NCBI RefSeq assembly: GCF_030013205.1
Contig: NZ_CP122648.1
Reading direction: 5' to 3' (one strand)
Length of the DNA stretch: 64,000 bases
Source of the DNA: Escherichia coli
GTDB lineage: Bacteria; Pseudomonadota; Gammaproteobacteria; Enterobacterales; Enterobacteriaceae
The notes beneath the pieces were generated by a model. It was given only the letters and a program-made list of their open reading frames with translations. It was not told the DNA's origin and did no database searches. A program made the position numbers and the translations under genes. Within the stretch, counting starts at the first letter, position 1. Each line of letters starts with the position of its first letter. Below are positions 39,523 through 60,210 of this stretch, piece by piece.

Positions 39523-40515
39523 CTAATCGATGGACAGTTTATGGACACTTTCAGCCAGCGGATTAAAGTTGATCGCGTCCTGTAAGAAGTCCGGCGAAAA
39601 ATGAGCGTACGTCATTGTTTGCTGAATCGTTGCGTGCCCCAGGATTCGTTGCAACGTAACAATATTTCCGCCATTCATCATAAAGTGTGTGGCAAATGTA
39701 TGACGCATGACATGCGTAGCCTGCCCCTTCGGCAAATCCGGTTTCACCTCCTGAAGAATCTCCCGGAACTTCAGATAATCAACCTGATACAATAACCCCG
39801 TTCGACGGGTTTTAATCAGAGGCACGACCGAATCCGCCACAGGAACCGAACGGGATTTTCCGTTTTTGGTGTTAAAGAACGTCACCCGGTTGCCAACGAT
39901 ATGCTCTCCACGTAGTTCCGATGCTTCACTCCATCGGGCACCAGTAGAAAGACACAGAATGGCAACACGACGCGCATCACCCTCCAGTCGCTCAAGAAGC
40001 CGTTCAATCTCATCATCAGAAAGAAAGGCCATCTCTGTGTTCTGAACTTTCAGTTTTCGTATACCGCGTACAGGGTTCGCGTTGTGAAAGACCTCAGCTT
40101 CAATCAGCACCGTGAACATGGTAGACAGTACGCATAAGTCACGATTAATACTGGACGGCATTAATCCGGCCTGTAATTTCTCTGACCGATATTCAAGCAT
40201 AAATTTTCGCGTCATCTGACTGGCGCGAGGATCTCCCATTTCACGAACAACCTTCCCTAGCCTAACCCTGTAGCTATCCCCGTAAGCCTGATTACGCCCA
40301 TCAAGCATCCACCACGCATCAAGCAGCTCTGATAATCGCCGCTGATCAGCTGGCTTAGCCTGCCATGGCTTGTCATGAAAGTTCTGTAACACATACTTCT
40401 CAAACTCCTGAGCCTTTGATTTCAGGGCAAAGATTTTTCGAATCCGCTTTCCTTCCGCCCCCTGCGGTCTGACATCGACCTGATAACGTCCGTCTTTGAG
40501 TTGCTTAATCGACAT
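39523..40515 (-). CDS. int: Phage integrase (tyrosine recombinase, P2 Int-like)
   Basis: N-terminus MSIKQLKDGRYQVDVRPQG resembles P2 Int; C-terminal catalytic region with HxxR...Y; adjacent to attL. Confidence 0.88.
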   Translation of the reverse strand: MSIKQLKDGRYQVDVRPQGAEGKRIRKIFALKSKAQEFEKYVLQNFHDKPWQAKPADQRRLSELLDAWWMLDGRNQAYGDSYRVRLGKVVREMGDPRASQMTRKFMLEYRSEKLQAGLMPSSINRDLCVLSTMFTVLIEAEVFHNANPVRGIRKLKVQNTEMAFLSDDEIERLLERLEGDARRVAILCLSTGARWSEASELRGEHIVGNRVTFFNTKNGKSRSVPVADSVVPLIKTRRTGLLYQVDYLKFREILQEVKPDLPKGQATHVMRHTFATHFMMNGGNIVTLQRILGHATIQQTMTYAHFSPDFLQDAINFNPLAESVHKLSID

Positions 40516-41030: not shown

Positions 41031-41552
41031 ATGCGGGACTTCATTGCCGATAAAGAGTTATCTGACCACCAACCACTTCAGGAAAGTGACGCACTCAGCG
41101 GATCCATTGATGCCGCCAACGACGACGAACACGAAGAAAACAAGAAAAAGCGTTCCTACAAAAAAGGAGCGACTTTACGGCTGGATGGTCCGATCGCCGG
41201 GCTTTGCTCTCTGGAAAAAGGCGCGGCATATATTGGGCTAACAAAATCTGCACTGCGCGTAGCCATTCATCGCGGTCAAATGCCGGGACACAAGACGCGC
41301 ACAAACCCGGAAGATGAAAACTCAGACGGAGTATGGTGGTTTAACGCCAAAGAGTGGGACGCACTGGCTGACGAGCTACCGGAACTTGAGCCACCAGAAT
41401 GGCACAACTGGAAAAGTTACTGGACGTATGACCGCCAGAAAAGAAAGTTCTTTCCAGCTAATAAAGAAGACTGCCAGACCATTAACGGTAAGCGAGTTTA
41501 TACAGGCAGAAGCTCAAAACTGAACCAACTCAGAAACAACAGAGGCAACTAA
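41031..41552 (+). CDS. Early protein with excisionase/AlpA-like HTH (possible Cox analogue), 173 aa
   Basis: First gene of the rightward early operon with a good RBS; segment YIGLTKSALRVAIHRGQMPG resembles Xis/AlpA HTH. Confidence 0.5.
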   Translation: MRDFIADKELSDHQPLQESDALSGSIDAANDDEHEENKKKRSYKKGATLRLDGPIAGLCSLEKGAAYIGLTKSALRVAIHRGQMPGHKTRTNPEDENSDGVWWFNAKEWDALADELPELEPPEWHNWKSYWTYDRQKRKFFPANKEDCQTINGKRVYTGRSSKLNQLRNNRGN

Positions 41553-41556
41553 TCGT

Positions 41557-41979
41557 ATGAAAACAAACACGTCAGATTTCACAATAACTATTTCAAAAAA
41601 TGACCAAGCATTAATTGATAACCTGAAATACCTTGCGGAAAAACATAATAACGGACGAATTGCAATTAATTTACGACACATCACAGGAGTAACAATTGTA
41701 ACCAGTTACTGGCATCTATATCTAATCGCTAAATCAGTACTGGAAAACAAAGATTCTGTTGTCAATGGAAGAGATGTAGATACTCTTCCTGCACAAATCA
41801 AACCGATAGCCTATCAATTGCGTAATCGTTTTAAAAATGAAGGTGGGATTATATTTGACTTTCCCGCAGCTGTAGCCGTGAGCTTCTCTCGGGAGGATAT
41901 ACTTCACTCATTTCGTTTTGCTCTATCAGGTGACGAGACATTATGGCAGCTAGAAGATGCCGGGAGCAGCCCGGCATAA
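41557..41979 (+). CDS. Hypothetical protein, 140 aa, AT-rich cargo
   Basis: ORF starts 5 bp after the preceding gene; markedly AT-rich; no recognisable domain. Confidence 0.5.
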   Translation: MKTNTSDFTITISKNDQALIDNLKYLAEKHNNGRIAINLRHITGVTIVTSYWHLYLIAKSVLENKDSVVNGRDVDTLPAQIKPIAYQLRNRFKNEGGIIFDFPAAVAVSFSREDILHSFRFALSGDETLWQLEDAGSSPA

Positions 41980-41985
41980 ATCAAA

Positions 41986-42177
41986 TTAAAAATCAACCAG
42001 TTGTGTGACAGGTGGGTATTTACGCTGAATTTTGTCAGTTACTAACGCCAGTAATATATGAATCTCTGCGTTTAATGCGTCTTTATCACCCGTCGTTTTT
42101 ACCCTAGGAGGGTTAATGTTATCCAGAGCAGCACTAAGGTCACTCAACAAATTAACAACTTTTTTATCTTCTGACAT
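41986..42177 (-). CDS. Hypothetical small protein, 63 aa, convergent to the 140-aa ORF
   Basis: AT-rich ORF on the opposite strand inside the early region. Confidence 0.35.
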   Translation of the reverse strand: MSEDKKVVNLLSDLSAALDNINPPRVKTTGDKDALNAEIHILLALVTDKIQRKYPPVTQLVDF

Positions 42178-42312
42178 GAAAACCTCTAAACAATTTAATT
42201 AAACATAAGCCAGGACCTGAACCGGCCAGTCCAAGTCCTAGACACACAAAAAATACCACAAATCAATACAAGGTGACACGAGTACACCTTACCGAAGGTA
42301 CAGAGTTTTAAT

Positions 42313-42663
42313 ATGAAACTACAGCGCAATTCTTCACAGCCGCGCTTCCGCAACGGTGCGGAACGCCACGCTAACCGTTTCGCTACCAGTGCATCACGTA
42401 GCAACTCTCGCTACAGCCTGAGCGAAACACACGCAACGCCGGATGGCTACCCAGTAAAACAAATCGGCGAGCATACCTGGCTGATTGAGAAAGCTGGAAT
42501 TGTGGTCCACAAATGCCCACGCAATCCGTTTACCGGAAACCGCATTTTTGCATTGAGCTGCGGCGACAATCAGTTCGGGCAGGATTTCACATTATACGAA
42601 GCACTTCGCACGGTTGATCGTCTGCTTCGCGGGCAAAGTTTTATTAAACAGGCTGATTTATAA
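42313..42663 (+). CDS. Hypothetical phage early protein, 116 aa
   Basis: ORF in the early operon; start uncertain. Confidence 0.4.
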   Translation: MKLQRNSSQPRFRNGAERHANRFATSASRSNSRYSLSETHATPDGYPVKQIGEHTWLIEKAGIVVHKCPRNPFTGNRIFALSCGDNQFGQDFTLYEALRTVDRLLRGQSFIKQADL

Positions 42664-44606: not shown

Positions 44607-44810
44607 ATGAACAAAAAGACCTGGTTTCGCGCATACATGTGGGCGCTGGTATGCGTCCTCGTTTCTCTCATTCTGTATGCAGGACTCCTCCCCCGAATGA
44701 TTTCATCAGACAGCTCCTTCCTGGTATTGCTGGGCATTTTCATTGCCATGCTGTACCCGGCAGGCGTTGTTCGCCTTTTCAGTAAGTACATCAAGGAAAT
44801 CAAACAATGA
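44607..44810 (+). CDS. Small two-helix membrane protein, 67 aa (possible NfeD-like partner)
   Basis: Two hydrophobic helices; stop overlaps the start of the SPFH gene (ATGA). Confidence 0.5.
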   Translation: MNKKTWFRAYMWALVCVLVSLILYAGLLPRMISSDSSFLVLLGIFIAMLYPAGVVRLFSKYIKEIKQ

Positions 44811-45637
44811 AGAAATTCAAACTCTTTCAGATTATCCCTCTTTTTGCCGCCATCCTGCTGGTTGGTTGCGATCGTGTTGAGCCAGGTAATGTGGGCATCA
44901 AAGTCAACAAACTGGGCGACGACAAAGGCGTCGGTGAAGTGGTTGGTGTTGGCCGCTACTGGACTGGCTGGAATACCGAGGTTTACATCTTCCCGACCTT
45001 CAAACAAATGAAGACCTACGATGAGCCGTTCAGCTTCCAGATGAGTGACGGCACAACCATCGGCTATCACATCGGTGTGGCCTACAAGGTTGATCCATCC
45101 AAAGTTACTACAGTGTTTCAGACCTACCGCAAAGGCGTGGATGACATTACCGACACTGACCTGCGCCAGAAGATCGCCGATGCACTCAACCGACTGGCCA
45201 GCAAAATGACCACCGACAAATTTATCGACGGCGGGAAATCTGAACTACTGGATGCAGCTCTTAAAGACATTCAGGAGGAAATGACACCCATCGGTATTCA
45301 GGTAATGAGCCTCTCATATGTGGGTAAGCCGGAGTACCCGTCAACCGTTATCGACAGCATTAATGCCAAAGTCACGGCAAACCAGAAAACCCTGCAACGC
45401 GAACAGGAAGTCAAGCAACGTGAAGCAGAAGCCAACATGTTGCGCGCAGAAGCTGCCGGACAGGCTGATGCCATTCGCACAAAAGCCCAGGCTGAAGCCG
45501 ACGCCATTCGTTTACGCGGTGAAGCTCTGCGCCAGAATCCCGGCGTTATGGAGCTGGAAGCAATCAACAAATGGAACGGCACGCTGCCGCAATACATGAC
45601 CAGCAATACCGCTGTTCCGTTTGTTCCGGTGAAGTAA
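44807..45637 (+). CDS. SPFH/band-7 (stomatin/prohibitin-like) lipoprotein, 276 aa
   Basis: Lipobox LLVGC; SPFH-like core followed by an Ala/Glu-rich coiled coil (REAEANMLRAEAAGQADAIRTKAQAEADAIRLRGEA). Confidence 0.65.
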   Translation: MKKFKLFQIIPLFAAILLVGCDRVEPGNVGIKVNKLGDDKGVGEVVGVGRYWTGWNTEVYIFPTFKQMKTYDEPFSFQMSDGTTIGYHIGVAYKVDPSKVTTVFQTYRKGVDDITDTDLRQKIADALNRLASKMTTDKFIDGGKSELLDAALKDIQEEMTPIGIQVMSLSYVGKPEYPSTVIDSINAKVTANQKTLQREQEVKQREAEANMLRAEAAGQADAIRTKAQAEADAIRLRGEALRQNPGVMELEAINKWNGTLPQYMTSNTAVPFVPVK

Positions 45638-46679: not shown

Positions 46680-46967
46680 ATGACAGCAGAGTACATCAGG
46701 GACTGGCAACAACCGCGCCACGCAGTGGGGCGTGAAGGAACGGGGATCCCTGCTCCTGAAGCGGTGGAAGGTGTCGCAACGTCACAGGCCGACATTATCG
46801 ACCGTTTTAATGCGCTGGAAACCCGCCATCAGCAGGACAGCCAGAAAATCACTTTACTGACCACAGAGCTGACAGCACTGAAGGAAAAACTGCGCACGCA
46901 GGACGGCGATCCGCAGAACCGGTTCACCGCAACGGGCGCAGCCTCCGATCAACTGGCTGACTTCTGA
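46680..46967 (+). CDS. Hypothetical phage protein, 95 aa
   Basis: Tightly packed ORF. Confidence 0.45.
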   Translation: MTAEYIRDWQQPRHAVGREGTGIPAPEAVEGVATSQADIIDRFNALETRHQQDSQKITLLTTELTALKEKLRTQDGDPQNRFTATGAASDQLADF

Positions 46968-46990
46968 TAAGACAAAGGAGCAAATTTTTT

Positions 46991-47254
46991 ATGAATCTGG
47001 TGATGTCAGATATTACCCGCAACAAGCTGGGTTGCTATATGGCGCAGCAGGCGTCGCTTAACAACATCCCGGTATCTGCACTGGTATCGCGATTTACCGT
47101 GGAACCCTCGGTGTCCGCCATTGCTGCCGCACTGCATGTGCACGGTGTGCAACGCGTGGAAATAATCGAACCCACACAGAATATGGCCATCAGCGACATA
47201 CAGGCGGCGCGCTGTGAGTCATTCACCATCAGCGAAGGTGGACGCAATGAGTAA
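46991..47254 (+). CDS. Short ORF (87 aa) overlapping the gpI start; possibly a 3' remnant of baseplate gene J
   Basis: 8-bp overlap with gpI as expected for a J/I junction; far shorter than P2 J (~300 aa). Confidence 0.35.
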   Translation: MNLVMSDITRNKLGCYMAQQASLNNIPVSALVSRFTVEPSVSAIAAALHVHGVQRVEIIEPTQNMAISDIQAARCESFTISEGGRNE

Positions 47255-50442: not shown

Positions 50443-51059
50443 TGGCATTCAGAATGAGTGAACAATCACGTACTGTAAAAATTTATAACCTGCTGGCCGG
50501 AACTAATGAGTTTATTGGTGAAGGTGACGCATATATTCCACCTCATACAGGGCTGCCAGCCAATTCTACAGATATCGCCCCACCGGAAATTCCTGCTGGC
50601 TTTGTGGCAGTTTTTAACAGTGAAAATGAATCGTGGAATATTGTTGAAGACCATCGTGGTAAAACGGTCTATGACGTGGCATCGGGGGACGCGTTGTTTA
50701 TTTCTGAACCCGGACCGCTACCAGAGAATGTCACCTGGTTGTCGCCAGCAGGGGAGTATCAGAAGTGGGACGGCGTATCCTGGGTGAAGGATGAGGAAGC
50801 AGAAAAACTGTTTCGGATACGGGAAGCGGAAGAGAAAAAGGCAAGGTTGATCCAGGAAGCAACAGATAACATCGCAATTCTGCAGGATGCAGTTAATCTT
50901 GAAATAGCAACAAACGAGGAAAATTCACAACTGGATTCCTGGAGAAAATACAGAGTATTAGTGAGTAGAATTGACACCAGTACAGCTCCGGATATCGTAT
51001 GGCCAGAGCTGATGAATCAGGGTTATGTGCGGGAGGACGAGCAGATAACTTCAGACTGA
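50442..51059 (+). CDS. Tail fiber assembly chaperone (P2 gpG/Tfa-like), 205 aa
   Basis: TAATG-coupled to the fiber gene; Tfa-like sequence. Confidence 0.8.
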
Positions 51060-51586
51060 AATTTAGTGATGAATGTTGAATCATCTGGAATATCATGCAA
51101 TACCAATGCATGAGCACCTATTGTGACATTGTTTCCTATACGCACTTTGCCACCAAGAATGGTGGCATTACAACCAATGGTCACATTATGTCCTATAACA
51201 ATATCCATATCATTAAAATCACCACGCAGCCCAATAGTTACCCCTGGTTTTATTGAACAATTTTCACCGATTGTTACTTTGTGACCGATAACAACACTGT
51301 TGAGATAAGAAATATCAAAGCCTTTCCCTATATTTACAGTTAAAGGGACTGTTACATTATATTTATCAAGAATGAAACGTTCTATTTTCCCCGCAATCTT
51401 CCGACAGCATCCGCCTTTATCAAAAAGGTATTTGGCTATGCGCCACCAAAATAAATAACGAACTCTTCTATGTTTTATTGCGCGAACAATTGCCTTTCGC
51501 CAGGAGAAAGGACGCTCGCTACCGATTACTTCATAGTGAATACAATCTTTAAGTTCATTAATATTCATATCTCTATTATTCAGCAT
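51023..51586 (-). CDS. Hexapeptide-repeat O-acetyltransferase (WcaB/CysE-like), 187 aa
   Basis: Left-handed beta-helix repeats ([45 protein letters not shown]); AT-rich; 37-bp convergent overlap with the fiber assembly gene. Confidence 0.75.
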
Positions 51587-57499: not shown

Positions 57500-58609
57500 A
57501 TGACCGATACCACCATGCAATTGCTCAGTCAGGGCACAGACCCCGTGAAAATGCCGGATTTTGATATTCTCGCGGAGGGTAAAACGCTGTCAGGCGTGGC
57601 AGAGCGCCTGATGAGCCTGTCACTGACCGACAACCGGGGATTTGAGGCGGACCAGCTCACCATCACGCTGGATGATGCGGATGGTCAGTTGCAGCTACCG
57701 CCACGGGGCGCGCGCCTGACGGTTCTCATTGGCTGGAAAGGAGAACCGCTGACAGAAAAAGGCACTTACATTGTTGATGAAATCGCTCACGAAGGACCGC
57801 CGGACAGGCTGACTGTTTCAGCCAGAAGCGCAGATTTTCGGGATGAATTTAACGTTAAACGTGAGGTGTCCTGGCATGATGTGACCGTTGAGCGTGTGGT
57901 ATCCGCCATCGCTCATCGGTACGGCCTGAAACCGCAAATCAGCGAAATGCTGATGGATATCGAAATCGACCACGCCGACCAGACCGAAGAAAGCGACATG
58001 TCCTTTCTTACGCGCATGGCGGAAATGCTGGGCGCAATCACCACGGTAAAAAGCGGTAATCTGTTATTCATTATGCCAGGCGGTGGCGTGAACGCACAGG
58101 GCCAGCCGTTGCCCTCGTTCGCCATTACACGCAGCAGCGGCGATCGCCATCAGTTCCGTATTGCTGACCGCGAGGCGTATACGGGGGTACGCGCCTACTG
58201 GCTTGATCTTAATTACGGGAAAAAGAAAAAAGTCAGCGTGAAACGCCGTAAACCGCCAAAACCCAAAAAGGAGAAAAGCAGCAGCCGTGAAGGTGATTAT
58301 ATGGAAGGCGCGGAAGGCAATGTGTTTGTGTTACGCAAGACTTATCAGAACGAGCAGGCAGCAAGACGCGCAGCGGCGGCAAAGTGGCAGCAGCTACAAC
58401 GCGGAGCCGCATCATTCTCCATCACGCTGGCGCGTGGACGTGCAGAACTCTACCCTGAAATGCATGGCACGGTGACAGGCTTTAAAAGTGACATCGACAA
58501 TCAGGACTGGATTATTGCAAAAGCCGAGCACACCATTGATAACAGCGGCTTTACCACGCAGCTTGAGCTTGAAGCAAAAATCCCAGAATGGATAGCAGAA
58601 ACAGAGTAA
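57500..58609 (+). CDS. Tail protein D (P2 gpD-like), 369 aa
   Basis: Start at MTDTTMQLL with RBS AGGGAGGG; gpD-like sequence; ORF track extends upstream to 57368. Confidence 0.85.
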   Translation: MTDTTMQLLSQGTDPVKMPDFDILAEGKTLSGVAERLMSLSLTDNRGFEADQLTITLDDADGQLQLPPRGARLTVLIGWKGEPLTEKGTYIVDEIAHEGPPDRLTVSARSADFRDEFNVKREVSWHDVTVERVVSAIAHRYGLKPQISEMLMDIEIDHADQTEESDMSFLTRMAEMLGAITTVKSGNLLFIMPGGGVNAQGQPLPSFAITRSSGDRHQFRIADREAYTGVRAYWLDLNYGKKKKVSVKRRKPPKPKKEKSSSREGDYMEGAEGNVFVLRKTYQNEQAARRAAAAKWQQLQRGAASFSITLARGRAELYPEMHGTVTGFKSDIDNQDWIIAKAEHTIDNSGFTTQLELEAKIPEWIAETE

Positions 58610-58785
58610 ACAACTTAGATGCATTAGCCCTGACATTTGCTAACGCGCCTACAGCAAGAATCATAATCAATCTGACAGCCTACCCGGTGTCAAAATCAGA
58701 AGTACCTTACATTAGAATATGTTAATTTGTAGCAAACAAATTTACACACAAATAATTACTGCTGAAATAGCGCCCCATAAATGCC

Positions 58786-59469
58786 ATGTCAGAGGACCAT
58801 GTTATGAATATGCAAATTTTTATTGGACCAACAGCCACAGTTGCCGCGGTCTGCCTTGCTGCATATTTTGCTTTACGAAATGAGCGTAAAAAGAAAGCGC
58901 TTGAGATTAGAACAACTCAACTAGATCGAATATCTGAGCTAGTAAGCAGAGCATCTACCAATTTGATGCAATATACAGGTACTCTTGCCTCTATACTGGA
59001 AGCGCACACCAAAGAAAATTATCTACCAGACCACAAATTTAACATTAATGAAATTAGCAAATGGAAAAATGATCTCGATAAGAGAGAAGATTGGGCTATT
59101 GATATACAGCAACTAAGAACATGCCAGCACAACCTGGAGTTTCATCGTGAAAAAGAATGGGCTGAATGGGAAAAAATAATTCCACCATTACTTGATAAAA
59201 TTAACCAATTTTTTCTCATATCCAAGCCGGGGCAACCTGTTACGCTTATAAATGGTCAAAATAAAACAGTCGATGAACTGATTGCTTTCTCAATATACTT
59301 ACAACAACAAACAGAAGAAATTAAAGCGGTACGTAAGCTGCTACTTTCTCAAATGAGAGAAGAATTCATCGAGTTAACTAGCTTTGAACCTGTCACAATA
59401 TTTAGCTTATTAAAATCAATAAAGAAAAGTGTCCTGCAATTTTTCTGTATCAGTGCTCTTAAAAATTGA
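58786..59469 (+). CDS. Membrane-anchored hypothetical protein, 227 aa, AT-rich cargo between D and ogr
   Basis: N-terminal TM helix (IFIGPTATVAAVCLAAYFAL) then ~190-aa charged helical domain; low GC; followed by a hairpin terminator at ~59483-59512. Confidence 0.6.
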   Translation: MSEDHVMNMQIFIGPTATVAAVCLAAYFALRNERKKKALEIRTTQLDRISELVSRASTNLMQYTGTLASILEAHTKENYLPDHKFNINEISKWKNDLDKREDWAIDIQQLRTCQHNLEFHREKEWAEWEKIIPPLLDKINQFFLISKPGQPVTLINGQNKTVDELIAFSIYLQQQTEEIKAVRKLLLSQMREEFIELTSFEPVTIFSLLKSIKKSVLQFFCISALKN

Positions 59470-59618
59470 CGCTCTGTTACAAGCAACCCCAGTGTTAAAC
59501 TGGGGTTATTCTTGCTAAGAGACCTTTATACGGCATAAGTAAACAAAGAGAACTATCAGTTGGAGTCTGGGCAAGTTCAGCCTAAACTAGCGACAGTACC
59601 ACGTTAAGGGAGGTCGCT

Positions 59619-59879
59619 ATGTTCCGTTGTCCGCTTTGTGGCGCATCTGCCCGTATCCGCACCAGTCGTCCGGAAAATGATTCAAACACCGTGCGGCAAA
59701 AGTATTACCAGTGCAACAACCTGGAATGCGGCGTATGCTTCTCAACACTGGAAGCTTTCCATAAATTCACATCGAAACACGCCTCCGGCATCCACTCTTC
59801 AGAAGGTATCCCGTGGCATGAGCTGCCAGCTTCACACAGGGGAAACAATCAGATGAGCTTGCCTTTACCTCAGAATTAA
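59619..59879 (+). CDS. ogr: Ogr/Delta-like zinc-finger late gene activator, 86 aa
   Basis: MFRCPLCGASARIRTSR...QKYYQCNNLECG: CxxC...CxxC arrangement as in P2 Ogr. Confidence 0.8.
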   Translation: MFRCPLCGASARIRTSRPENDSNTVRQKYYQCNNLECGVCFSTLEAFHKFTSKHASGIHSSEGIPWHELPASHRGNNQMSLPLPQN

Positions 59880-59939
59880 CAGGCAGAATTGCCGGAGTAA
59901 CAAAAAAGCGATAGATTACGCGCGGGTGCCTTTCGGCTG

Positions 59940-60152
59940 ATGGTCGGAGGGAATACCCGAAGGCCGGATGTGGAAAGGCCCCGGAAAACATTTTTGTTTA
60001 ACCGAGGCCCTGACCATACAACCTTCGCAAGTCGTAGGTTAGCGCCTCTCCAACAAAGGAGCAAGCGCTATGTCGCAAAAATCGCTTATGGCCATCACGT
60101 TCTGCGTGACGGTAATCCTCATCATCTGGATGCTGCACGGTTCGCTGTGTGA
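59940..60152 (+). CDS. Mok-like reading frame overlapping the hok-like toxin gene
   Basis: 70-codon ORF in another frame, starting upstream of and ending within the toxin ORF, as in hok/mok loci. Confidence 0.4.
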   Translation: MVGGNTRRPDVERPRKTFLFNRGPDHTTFASRRLAPLQQRSKRYVAKIAYGHHVLRDGNPHHLDAARFAV

Positions 60153-60210
60153 AATACGGATGAGCTTCTGGGGAGCGGAGTTTGCGGCGTTCTTACAGTG
60201 TAAGCAGTAA
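60070..60210 (+). CDS. Hok/Gef-family type I toxin, 46 aa (MSQKSLMAITFCVTVILIIWMLHGSLCEIRMSFWGAEFAAFLQCKQ)
   Basis: N-terminal TM helix then SLCEIR and AAF motifs characteristic of Hok-family toxins; RBS AAGGAG 8 nt upstream; below the ORF-track length cutoff. Confidence 0.75.
   Translation: MSQKSLMAITFCVTVILIIWMLHGSLCEIRMSFWGAEFAAFLQCKQ

What the first reader, a model, noticed from the sequence alone, without database searches (positions are those of the whole stretch)
58786..59469. AT-rich membrane-anchored orphan gene inserted between tail gene D and ogr
D and ogr are adjacent in P2 as recalled. Here a 227-aa ORF with one N-terminal TM helix and a charged helical domain sits between them in a conspicuously AT-rich island with its own terminator hairpin. 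This is the architecture of prophage cargo that often encodes single-gene abortive-infection or exclusion functions. I do not recognise the protein.
Basis: inference. Interest (0 to 1): 0.6.

Follow-up and report, generated by a model that had tools for sequence, protein, structure and literature searches.

The report
Membrane-anchored cargo gene in prophage hotspot
A real, AT-rich gene for a small inner-membrane-tethered helical protein of unknown family occupies a swap-in/swap-out slot between tail gene D and ogr of a P2-related prophage. In other E. coli strains that slot is empty or holds nuclease-type anti-phage genes, so this gene is a reasonable but untested candidate for a new phage-defence gene.

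Summary
The gene is 221 aa (ATG 58804), not 227 aa. It lies in the lowest-GC kilobase of the window (GC 0.37 against 0.505) and ends in a strong hairpin.

The host element is a 21-kb remnant of a Xuanwuvirus (P88-like, P2 relative) prophage in E. coli ETEC4079.

The D–ogr junction is a genuine variable cargo slot. About two-thirds of sampled junctions are empty, with 42 bp between the two genes. The rest carry this gene, GmrSD, a HEPN protein, a PIN protein, DUF3800, DUF2971 (PADLOC candidate PDC-S31), a ComF-type pair or an unknown protein. The slot is distinct from the published P2 gpA–gpQ hotspot.

The protein has no Pfam, PHROG, NCBIfam, PADLOC or PDB sequence match. It belongs to a small Enterobacterales family (about 14 diverged full-length representatives) with no conserved partner gene. 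Members sit in lambdoid Q–lysis moron slots, integrative conjugative elements (ICEs), a plasmid and defence islets next to Gabija, SNIPE, STAND-NTPase or type I R-M genes.

The AF2 model (pLDDT 86) shows an N-out transmembrane helix continuous with a cytoplasmic four-helix bundle. The TM and juxtamembrane part is the most conserved and the distal tip the most variable.

Best reading: a single-gene anti-phage function acting at the inner membrane. This is inferred, not shown.

The parts
57500..58609 (+). Tail gene D (369 aa), the conserved left anchor of the slot
   Evidence: PHROG 52 tail protein, E 7e-165. The same length is annotated as 'late control D' in L013. RefSeq calls only the 3' 801 nt in this strain.
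58610..58803 (+). Left flank and 5' untranslated region of the cargo. It carries a semi-conserved motif shared by unrelated cargos (TTAGATGCATTAGCYC...) and only weak sigma-70 candidates. No terminator lies between D and the gene.
   Evidence: Alignment of seven slot variants. Column identity is 94 % among three carriers of this cargo. The promoter/terminator scan found no sigma-70 site and no + strand terminator here.
58794..58798 (+). Shine-Dalgarno GAGGA for the ATG at 58804
   Evidence: Sequence read directly. It is conserved as AGGA in the other alleles.
58804..59469 (+). Cargo gene encoding a 221-aa protein: N-out TM helix (residues 5-24), conserved juxtamembrane LRNExxKKxLEIRT, a cytoplasmic four-helix bundle and a C-terminal amphipathic helix
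59485..59507 (+). Intrinsic-terminator-like hairpin ending the cargo transcript (and any read-through from D)
59545..59618 (+). Right flank conserved among all occupied slots irrespective of cargo. It probably carries the ogr promoter and ends in the ogr ribosome-binding site.
   Evidence: Alignment A5. The promoter role is inferred by analogy with the P2 ogr promoter annotated between D and ogr.
59619..59879 (+). ogr/Delta-type zinc-finger late activator, the conserved right anchor of the slot
   Evidence: PHROG 603, E 4e-15. RefSeq annotation.

Best explanation
The gene is horizontally acquired accessory cargo (a 'moron') in a previously undescribed diversity hotspot between D and ogr of Xuanwuvirus (P88-like) prophages. 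I think it most likely encodes a stand-alone anti-phage protein that works at the inner membrane.

Proposed mechanism:
- A short N-terminus faces the periplasm.
- One unusually conserved TM helix, with small-xxx-small packing motifs (A15/A19), is continuous with a long stalk helix.
- The stalk helix is part of a cytoplasmic four-helix bundle.
- The fast-evolving membrane-distal tip of the bundle recognises a phage product.
- The change is passed along the rigid helix to the conserved TM and juxtamembrane module.
- That module self-associates, or engages a membrane partner, and compromises the membrane. The infection is aborted or stalled before progeny are made.

Shown: a real gene under purifying selection, a variable slot, defence-type alternative cargos, a family found on many kinds of mobile element with no fixed partner, the predicted topology and fold, and the conservation gradient.

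Inferred: any anti-phage activity, the sensing role of the tip, the effector role of the TM helix, and expression in the lysogen.
For: The slot:
- Of 45 evenly sampled junctions with both flanks, 31 are empty and 14 hold one of six unrelated cargos. Further cargos appear among the 'D only' hits.
- The cargos are DUF3800 (a retron-associated effector domain, PMC7736814), DUF2971 (PADLOC PDC-S31, E 5e-27), a 340-aa protein with RiboL-PSP-HEPN (i-E 2.5e-4), a PIN protein, GmrSD and a ComF-type PRTase pair.

Contexts of family members:
- directly after an integrase (L003);
- an integrase + SNIPE islet (L004);
- beside Gabija-like GajA/GajB (L005);
- between antiterminator Q and the lysis genes in two different lambdoid backgrounds (L006-L008);
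- in an ICE next to an nSTAND NTPase (L009-L011);
- in a pKLC102-type ICE (L019);
- next to hsdR and a McrA-like HNH (L020/L021);
- on a Rep3 plasmid (L024).
- There is no conserved neighbouring gene.

The protein:
- The AF2 model has pLDDT 86 and pTM 0.72.
- In every member, 4-6 K/R follow the TM and, with one exception (P0008, whose N-terminal extension may lie upstream of the true start), 0-2 precede it.
- Conservation is 0.73-0.74 in the TM and juxtamembrane region against 0.32-0.41 at the distal tip. H114 and W122 are invariant.
- dN/dS is 0.33.
- The gene is intact in a prophage that has lost its head and lysis genes.
Against: - No experiment exists, and there is no homology to any characterised defence, exclusion or abortive-infection protein.
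- The fold matches are generic four-helix bundles, so the structure says nothing specific.
- No convincing sigma-70 promoter was found upstream. The gene is co-oriented with the late gene D with no terminator between them. The lambdoid homologue likewise sits at the head of the late operon. Expression may therefore be late-lytic rather than lysogenic.
- Guilt by association in hotspots also fits anti-defence, virulence or other accessory genes.
- One family member (P0017) sits among ordinary chromosomal genes.
Confidence: 0.35

Rival explanations
1. It is a superinfection-exclusion protein. From the inner membrane it blocks genome entry of related or competing temperate phages, for example by occupying or altering the inner-membrane component used for DNA translocation. 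The cell is not killed.
For: - It is a membrane-anchored single-gene moron in prophages, which is the architecture class of HK97 gp15, P22 SieA, T4 Imm and Sie2009 (own knowledge).
- The very conserved TM and juxtamembrane segment could be a binding surface for a conserved host membrane protein.
- A family member lies next to SNIPE, a defence that acts at DNA injection (PMC13190303 title and abstract).
Against: - Only about four residues are predicted to be periplasmic.
- There is no PHROG match to any exclusion family.
- Homologues occur on ICEs, a plasmid and chromosomal defence islets. This is atypical for phage-specific exclusion genes.
Confidence: 0.2
2. It is an accessory gene that does not act against phages. 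Candidates are a late-expressed phage function (lysis timing, membrane remodelling, protection of the lysing cell) or a lysogenic-conversion factor affecting host envelope physiology.
For: - In both phage contexts the gene is co-oriented with late transcription: after D with no intervening terminator, and directly after Q and ahead of the holin.
- No clear independent promoter was found.
- It is a membrane protein without an enzymatic domain.
Against: - It is sporadic. It is absent from P88, Chuche, PhiR44_2 and about 95 % of prophages with this junction, so it is not needed for the phage cycle.
- It also occurs on ICEs, a plasmid and defence islets that have no lysis cassette.
- It is retained intact in a prophage remnant that can no longer lyse.
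Confidence: 0.2
3. It is a functionless or decaying passenger: a relic ORF kept only by hitch-hiking.
For: - Truncated or frameshifted copies exist: phage 520873, and P0005-P0007.
- IS1 is inserted just upstream in AR_0128 and AR_0118.
- Distribution is very narrow.
Against: - dN/dS is 0.33 with dS 0.20.
- Full-length homologues at 20-40 % identity in several genera keep the same length, motifs and predicted fold.
- The AF2 model is confident.
Confidence: 0.05

Closest known systems
P2/P4 anti-phage diversity hotspots (Rousset et al. 2022, PMC9122126), e.g. the old/tin locus of P2
   Same: It is a small locus of high gene turnover between two conserved phage genes. The cargo is AT-rich and single-gene or two-gene. 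The alternative occupants are nuclease-type defence genes, and the elements are carried by E. coli P2-family prophages.
   Different: The published P2 hotspot lies between gpA and gpQ, next to cos. This slot lies between D and ogr at the other end of the genome, in the Xuanwuvirus genus. None of the cargos here has been tested, and I found no description of this slot in the searched literature.
Membrane-anchored prophage exclusion morons (HK97 gp15, P22 SieA, T4 Imm, lactococcal Sie2009)
   Same: It is a single small gene with its own terminator, inserted among tail or late genes of a temperate phage, and predicted to be anchored in the inner membrane.
   Different: There is no sequence relationship. 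HK97 gp15 is only 62 aa. Here the bulk of the protein is predicted to be cytoplasmic and folded as a four-helix bundle. Relatives occur outside phages.
Single-gene abortive-infection proteins with an N-terminal membrane anchor (e.g. lactococcal AbiP; own knowledge)
   Same: It is a stand-alone gene of about 200-250 aa on mobile DNA, with an N-terminal TM helix and a cytoplasmic domain.
   Different: No homology was detectable. No nucleic-acid-binding or enzymatic domain is recognisable. Activity is unknown.
Four-helix-bundle sensor domains of chemoreceptors and histidine kinases (4HB_MCP, NarX/Tar type)
   Different: Identity is 3-10 % and there is no Pfam hit. There is one TM helix rather than two. 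The positive-inside rule puts the bundle in the cytoplasm rather than the periplasm. There is no output domain. The resemblance is generic to helical bundles.

Membership tests
Prophage diversity/defence hotspot (sensu Rousset et al. 2022) | Small locus bounded by two conserved phage genes | tested here: met
   D and ogr flank every variant. The junction was found in about 1200 E. coli genomes.
Prophage diversity/defence hotspot (sensu Rousset et al. 2022) | High turnover of unrelated gene content at the same position | tested here: met
   At least nine states were seen: empty, this gene, DUF3800, DUF2971, a HEPN protein, a PIN protein, a 384-aa unknown, GmrSD and a ComF-type pair.
Prophage diversity/defence hotspot (sensu Rousset et al. 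2022) | Known defence systems among the occupants | tested here: inconclusive
   GmrSD is known only from the RefSeq annotation, and its PADLOC matches are weak. DUF2971 matches the PADLOC candidate PDC-S31. HEPN is supported by Pfam at i-E 2.5e-4. DUF3800 is retron-associated (PMC7736814). These are defence-type domains, but none is a validated system at this locus.
Prophage diversity/defence hotspot (sensu Rousset et al. 2022) | Identity with the published P2 hotspot (gpA-gpQ, cos-proximal) | tested here: not met
   The paper places its hotspot between gpA and gpQ. This slot is D-ogr.
Anti-phage defence gene | Homology to a described defence protein | tested here: not met
   PADLOC v2 gave no significant hit for the query or for 10 diverged members. 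There is no NCBIfam or Pfam hit.
Anti-phage defence gene | Reduces phage propagation when expressed | not testable with these tools
   This requires cloning and phage challenge.
Superinfection-exclusion proteins | Sequence membership of a known Sie family | tested here: not met
   No PHROG family at E <= 0.1 for the query, and only chance-level hits for other members.
Superinfection-exclusion proteins | Membrane location | tested here: met
   Prediction only: a TM segment at residues 5-24 is conserved in all members.
Superinfection-exclusion proteins | Confined to prophages and acting on incoming phage DNA | tested here: not met
   The distribution part is not met, since homologues occur on ICEs, a plasmid and chromosomal islets. 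The DNA-entry part cannot be tested here.
4HB_MCP-type sensor domain | Pfam profile match, and a periplasmic position between two TM helices | tested here: not met
   No Pfam match in any of 19 members. There is a single TM helix, and the K/R cluster lies on the bundle side.
   It is absent from P2, from P88, Chuche, PhiR44_2, P884B11 and Shae_phiSM, and from about 95 % of E. coli genomes with this junction.

The most novel reading that the evidence does not exclude
The TM-plus-four-helix-bundle family is a new single-protein anti-phage system. Its conserved transmembrane and juxtamembrane helix is the effector, and its hypervariable cytoplasmic bundle tip is the phage sensor. The D–ogr junction of Xuanwuvirus prophages would then be a previously unrecognised defence hotspot. 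Its other uncharacterised cargos (the 384-aa protein, the HEPN protein, the PIN protein and the ComF-type pair) would also be new defence genes.
Probability: 0.3. Interest if true: 0.6.

Novelty: new variant of a known kind. Interest (0 to 1): 0.45.

Why it matters
If the gene protects against phages, it adds a compact 221-aa system with no enzymatic domain to the defence repertoire. Its layout separates a conserved membrane module from a variable cytoplasmic tip, which suits dissection of how a membrane effector is coupled to phage sensing.

Independently of this gene's function, the D–ogr junction gives two short conserved anchors for mining new cargo. It occurs in about a fifth of complete E. 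coli genomes, and roughly a third of sampled junctions are occupied. It extends the hotspot concept from the gpA–gpQ locus of P2 to a second locus and a second genus.

It also bears on prophage domestication, because the cargo is intact in a prophage that has lost its head and lysis genes.

Tried and rejected
Searches that found nothing useful:
- Sequence searches of the query against Pfam, PHROGs, NCBIfam, PADLOC and PDB found nothing. The same was true for 10-19 diverged members.
- The word-indexed protein search found only seven near-identical clusters. The exhaustive profile search was needed to find the family.
- AF2 with four close sequences gave a useless model, pLDDT 42. Only the 19-sequence alignment gave a confident one.
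- Rfam found no RNA family in the island.
- Literature searches for the accessions, for Xuanwuvirus and for a D/ogr hotspot found no description.
- A search for the P0015 locus in E. coli genomes gave no match, so that member is from another genus.
- The search for related loci failed with the full alignment and worked with a subset.

Ideas considered and rejected:
- A conserved partner gene: the neighbours of eight homologues are unrelated to one another.
- A holin, spanin or antiholin role: presence is sporadic, and the family occurs on elements without lysis cassettes.
- A cleavable signal peptide: there is no positive n-region, and the K/R cluster follows the hydrophobic segment.
- HK97 gp15 as a homologue: it is only 62 aa.

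One discarded result: the ungapped comparison of D between the window and E2348/69 is invalid because of an indel, and was ignored.

Full report
**1. What is there**

The window is identical to E. coli ETEC4079 (NZ_CP122643.1) over at least 38600-63599. Window coordinate equals L001 coordinate plus 38599.

The region from the integrase (39523-40515) to hok (60070-60210) is a prophage of about 21 kb. It lies between dmsA and serS. Only fragments of its replication, scaffold and capsid genes remain, and it has no lysis or baseplate module.

The closest phages are P88, 520873, 500465-2 and Chuche, of the genus Xuanwuvirus, family Peduoviridae. In this genus FI-FII-E-E'-T-U are on one strand. D, ogr and hok are on the other strand at the right end.

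The ORF at 58786-59469 is real, but its start should be moved to ATG 58804:
- GAGGA lies five nt upstream.
- All homologues begin there.
- RefSeq annotates 221 aa.
- The upstream ATG is out of frame in E2348/69.

The island 58621-59545 has GC 0.37 and the gene has GC3 0.29. It is the lowest-GC kilobase of the window.

A nine-pair hairpin with a T-rich tail follows the stop codon. It folds at -23.3 kcal/mol with z = -4.3.

No terminator and no consensus sigma-70 promoter lie between D and the gene. By eye there are only weak candidates, for example TTGTAG-N18-AATAAT.

**2. It is a gene**
- The window allele and the E2348/69 allele differ at 8.7 % of nucleotides, with dS 0.20, dN 0.067 and dN/dS 0.33.
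- An exhaustive profile search of 1.84 billion representatives found 23 proteins. About 14 of them are full-length (214-235 aa) at 20-40 % identity.
- AFDB places members in Salmonella, Yersinia, Pantoea and Erwinia. Kluyvera also has one.
- None of the 19 aligned members hits Pfam, PHROGs or PADLOC. The query has no NCBIfam or PDB sequence match.

**3. The slot**

A 2-kb query across the junction matched 1204 records in 1201 of 5426 complete E. coli genomes.

In the evenly spaced sample of 60 rows, 45 had both flanks joined:
- 31 were empty, with a span of 1032-1034 bp and 42 bp between D and ogr.
- 14 were occupied: this gene (3), a 340-aa protein (5), DUF3800 (2), a 384-aa protein (2), DUF2971 (1) and a PIN protein (1).

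Ten further rows matched D only. Of the three inspected:
- one holds GmrSD;
- one holds a ComF-type phosphoribosyltransferase plus a 185-aa protein;
- one is an empty junction with a divergent ogr.

What the other cargos are:
- The 340-aa protein has a RiboL-PSP-HEPN domain.
- DUF2971 matches the PADLOC candidate PDC-S31.
- DUF3800 is a retron-associated effector domain (PMC7736814).

Occupied slots share about 30-80 nt of semi-conserved sequence on the left and about 55-75 nt on the right, whatever the cargo or its orientation. The consensus CAACTTAGA occurs at both ends and once in empty sites. This fits cassette exchange by recombination in shared flanks. The right-hand copy is degenerate in this window.

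P2 itself has D and ogr 81 bp apart, with the ogr promoter between them. A terminator after ogr serves both the ogr and the F-operon transcripts.

The same cargo occurs in prophages integrated next to serS (this window) and next to ihfA (E2348/69). The cassette therefore travels with the phage.

The P2 hotspot of Rousset et al. lies between gpA and gpQ. I found no published description of a D–ogr hotspot.

**4. Where the family lives**

| Member | Context |
|---|---|
| P0008 | overlaps the end of an integrase gene |
| P0009 | integrase + SNIPE islet |
| P0010 | next to DUF6710, about 800 bp from GajB/GajA-like genes |
| P0011 | between antiterminator Q and the lysis genes, in two different lambdoid backbones |
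| P0013 | in an ICE beside a 1290-aa nSTAND NTPase |
| P0014 | in a pKLC102-type ICE |
| P0015 | between a McrA-like HNH/hsdR block and other island genes |
| P0019 | on a Rep3/ParA plasmid beside integrases |
| P0017 | among ordinary chromosomal genes |

Neighbouring genes are unrelated to one another, so the protein works alone. IMG/VR holds 15 loci. Judged from identity to P0011 and the position of the match near contig ends, they appear to fall into the two phage contexts only; their flanking genes were not examined.

**5. The protein**

With the 19-sequence alignment, AF2 gives pLDDT 86.3 and pTM 0.72. The model contains:
- one continuous helix at 4-69, comprising the TM segment 5-24 and a 45-residue stalk;
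- helices at 81-93, 101-114, 116-136 and 156-192, which pack with the stalk into a four-helix bundle;
- two short strands at the membrane-distal tip;
- a lower-confidence amphipathic helix at 199-219.

In every member, 4-6 K/R residues follow the hydrophobic segment. All but one have 0-2 before it; P0008 has five in an N-terminal extension that may lie upstream of its true start. By the positive-inside rule the bundle is cytoplasmic.

Conservation is highest in the TM helix and the juxtamembrane motif LRNExxKKxLEIRT (0.73-0.74). It is lowest at the distal tip (0.32-0.41). H114 and W122 are invariant and F113 nearly so. By helix geometry these residues lie at the membrane-proximal turn. That placement is my inference from helix lengths, because no coordinates were available.

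**6. Interpretation**

The function remains inferred.

A TM helix that is the best-conserved part of the protein is unlikely to be a passive anchor. A rigid helix joins it to a bundle with a fast-evolving tip, which suggests a sensor-to-membrane coupling. The stand-alone distribution across phages, ICEs, plasmids and defence islets favours a general anti-phage role over phage-specific exclusion. I therefore rank the explanations as follows:

| Explanation | Confidence |
|---|---|
| Membrane-acting abortive or stalling defence | about 0.35 |
| Entry exclusion | about 0.2 |
| Non-defence accessory or late function | about 0.2 |
| Junk | about 0.05 |

The main caveat is expression. The gene may be transcribed mostly by late read-through from D, and from pR' in the lambdoid homologues.

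**7. Novelty and score**

The kind of thing, prophage hotspot cargo, is well known. The slot, the protein family and several neighbouring cargos are undescribed as far as I could check. A specialist would find it a sensible candidate rather than a surprise. Interest is 0.45.

Noticed in passing
window 39523-60210 (deletion joint near 46680-47113): The prophage is a remnant of about 21 kb. Only fragments of the replication protein, gpO scaffold and gpN capsid genes remain, and the portal, terminase, lysis and baseplate genes are missing. The tail fibre, tail tube/sheath, D, the cargo gene, ogr and hok are intact.
   Followed up: partly
window 51023-51568 (-): A serine acetyltransferase gene lies between the tail-fibre assembly gene and U, in a second low-GC patch (0.385). 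This is the position of the classical P2 'second moron region' (Z/fun), so it is probably another cargo slot.
   Followed up: no
window 41376-42350: A third low-GC patch (0.39) lies just after the cox-like gene. It holds two small hypothetical genes (41557-41979 + and 41986-42177 -), which may be further accessory cargo.
   Followed up: no
window 59924-60210: A hok/gef toxin gene (60070-60210) has a sok-like antisense RNA match (RF01794, 41.4 bits, below the gathering score of 59). It lies at the extreme right end of the prophage and is conserved in every prophage of this type inspected.
   Followed up: partly
window 58611-58690 and 59545-59600; L012-L018: Occupied D–ogr slots share semi-conserved flanks irrespective of cargo and orientation. 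The consensus CAACTTAGA is repeated at both ends and present once in empty sites. In several variants the left flank forms a hairpin (e.g. GTCCGCT...AGCGGAC) that has decayed in this window. The origin is unexplained: a duplication of the D 3' end, a recombination site or a target-site duplication.
   Followed up: partly
L027 (E. coli AR_0128; also AR_0118), 1239-1936: IS1A is inserted between D and the cargo gene, 44 bp upstream of its start. This could silence or drive the gene.
   Followed up: no
L002 (Escherichia phage 520873): This deposited 'phage' carries a frameshifted copy of the cargo gene (annotated 132 aa), IS100 inside the tail sheath gene and a fragmented D. It looks like a defective prophage rather than a viable phage.
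   Followed up: no
window 57500-58609: RefSeq annotates only the 3' 801 nt of D as 'VgrG/Pvc8 family', plus a tiny antisense pseudogene. The full 369-aa D reading frame is open and matches PHROG 52 end to end, so this is an annotation artefact repeated in many genomes.
   Followed up: partly
L047 6944-8091 (E. coli NCTC11121): A two-gene cargo occupies the same slot: a ComF-family phosphoribosyltransferase (weak match to the PsyrT C-terminal region, E 1e-7) plus a 185-aa unknown protein. It is a possible uncharacterised two-gene system.
   Followed up: partly
window 44807-45637 (+): An SPFH (stomatin/prohibitin-like) domain protein is encoded in the early region of the prophage. This is another membrane-associated accessory gene.
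   Followed up: no
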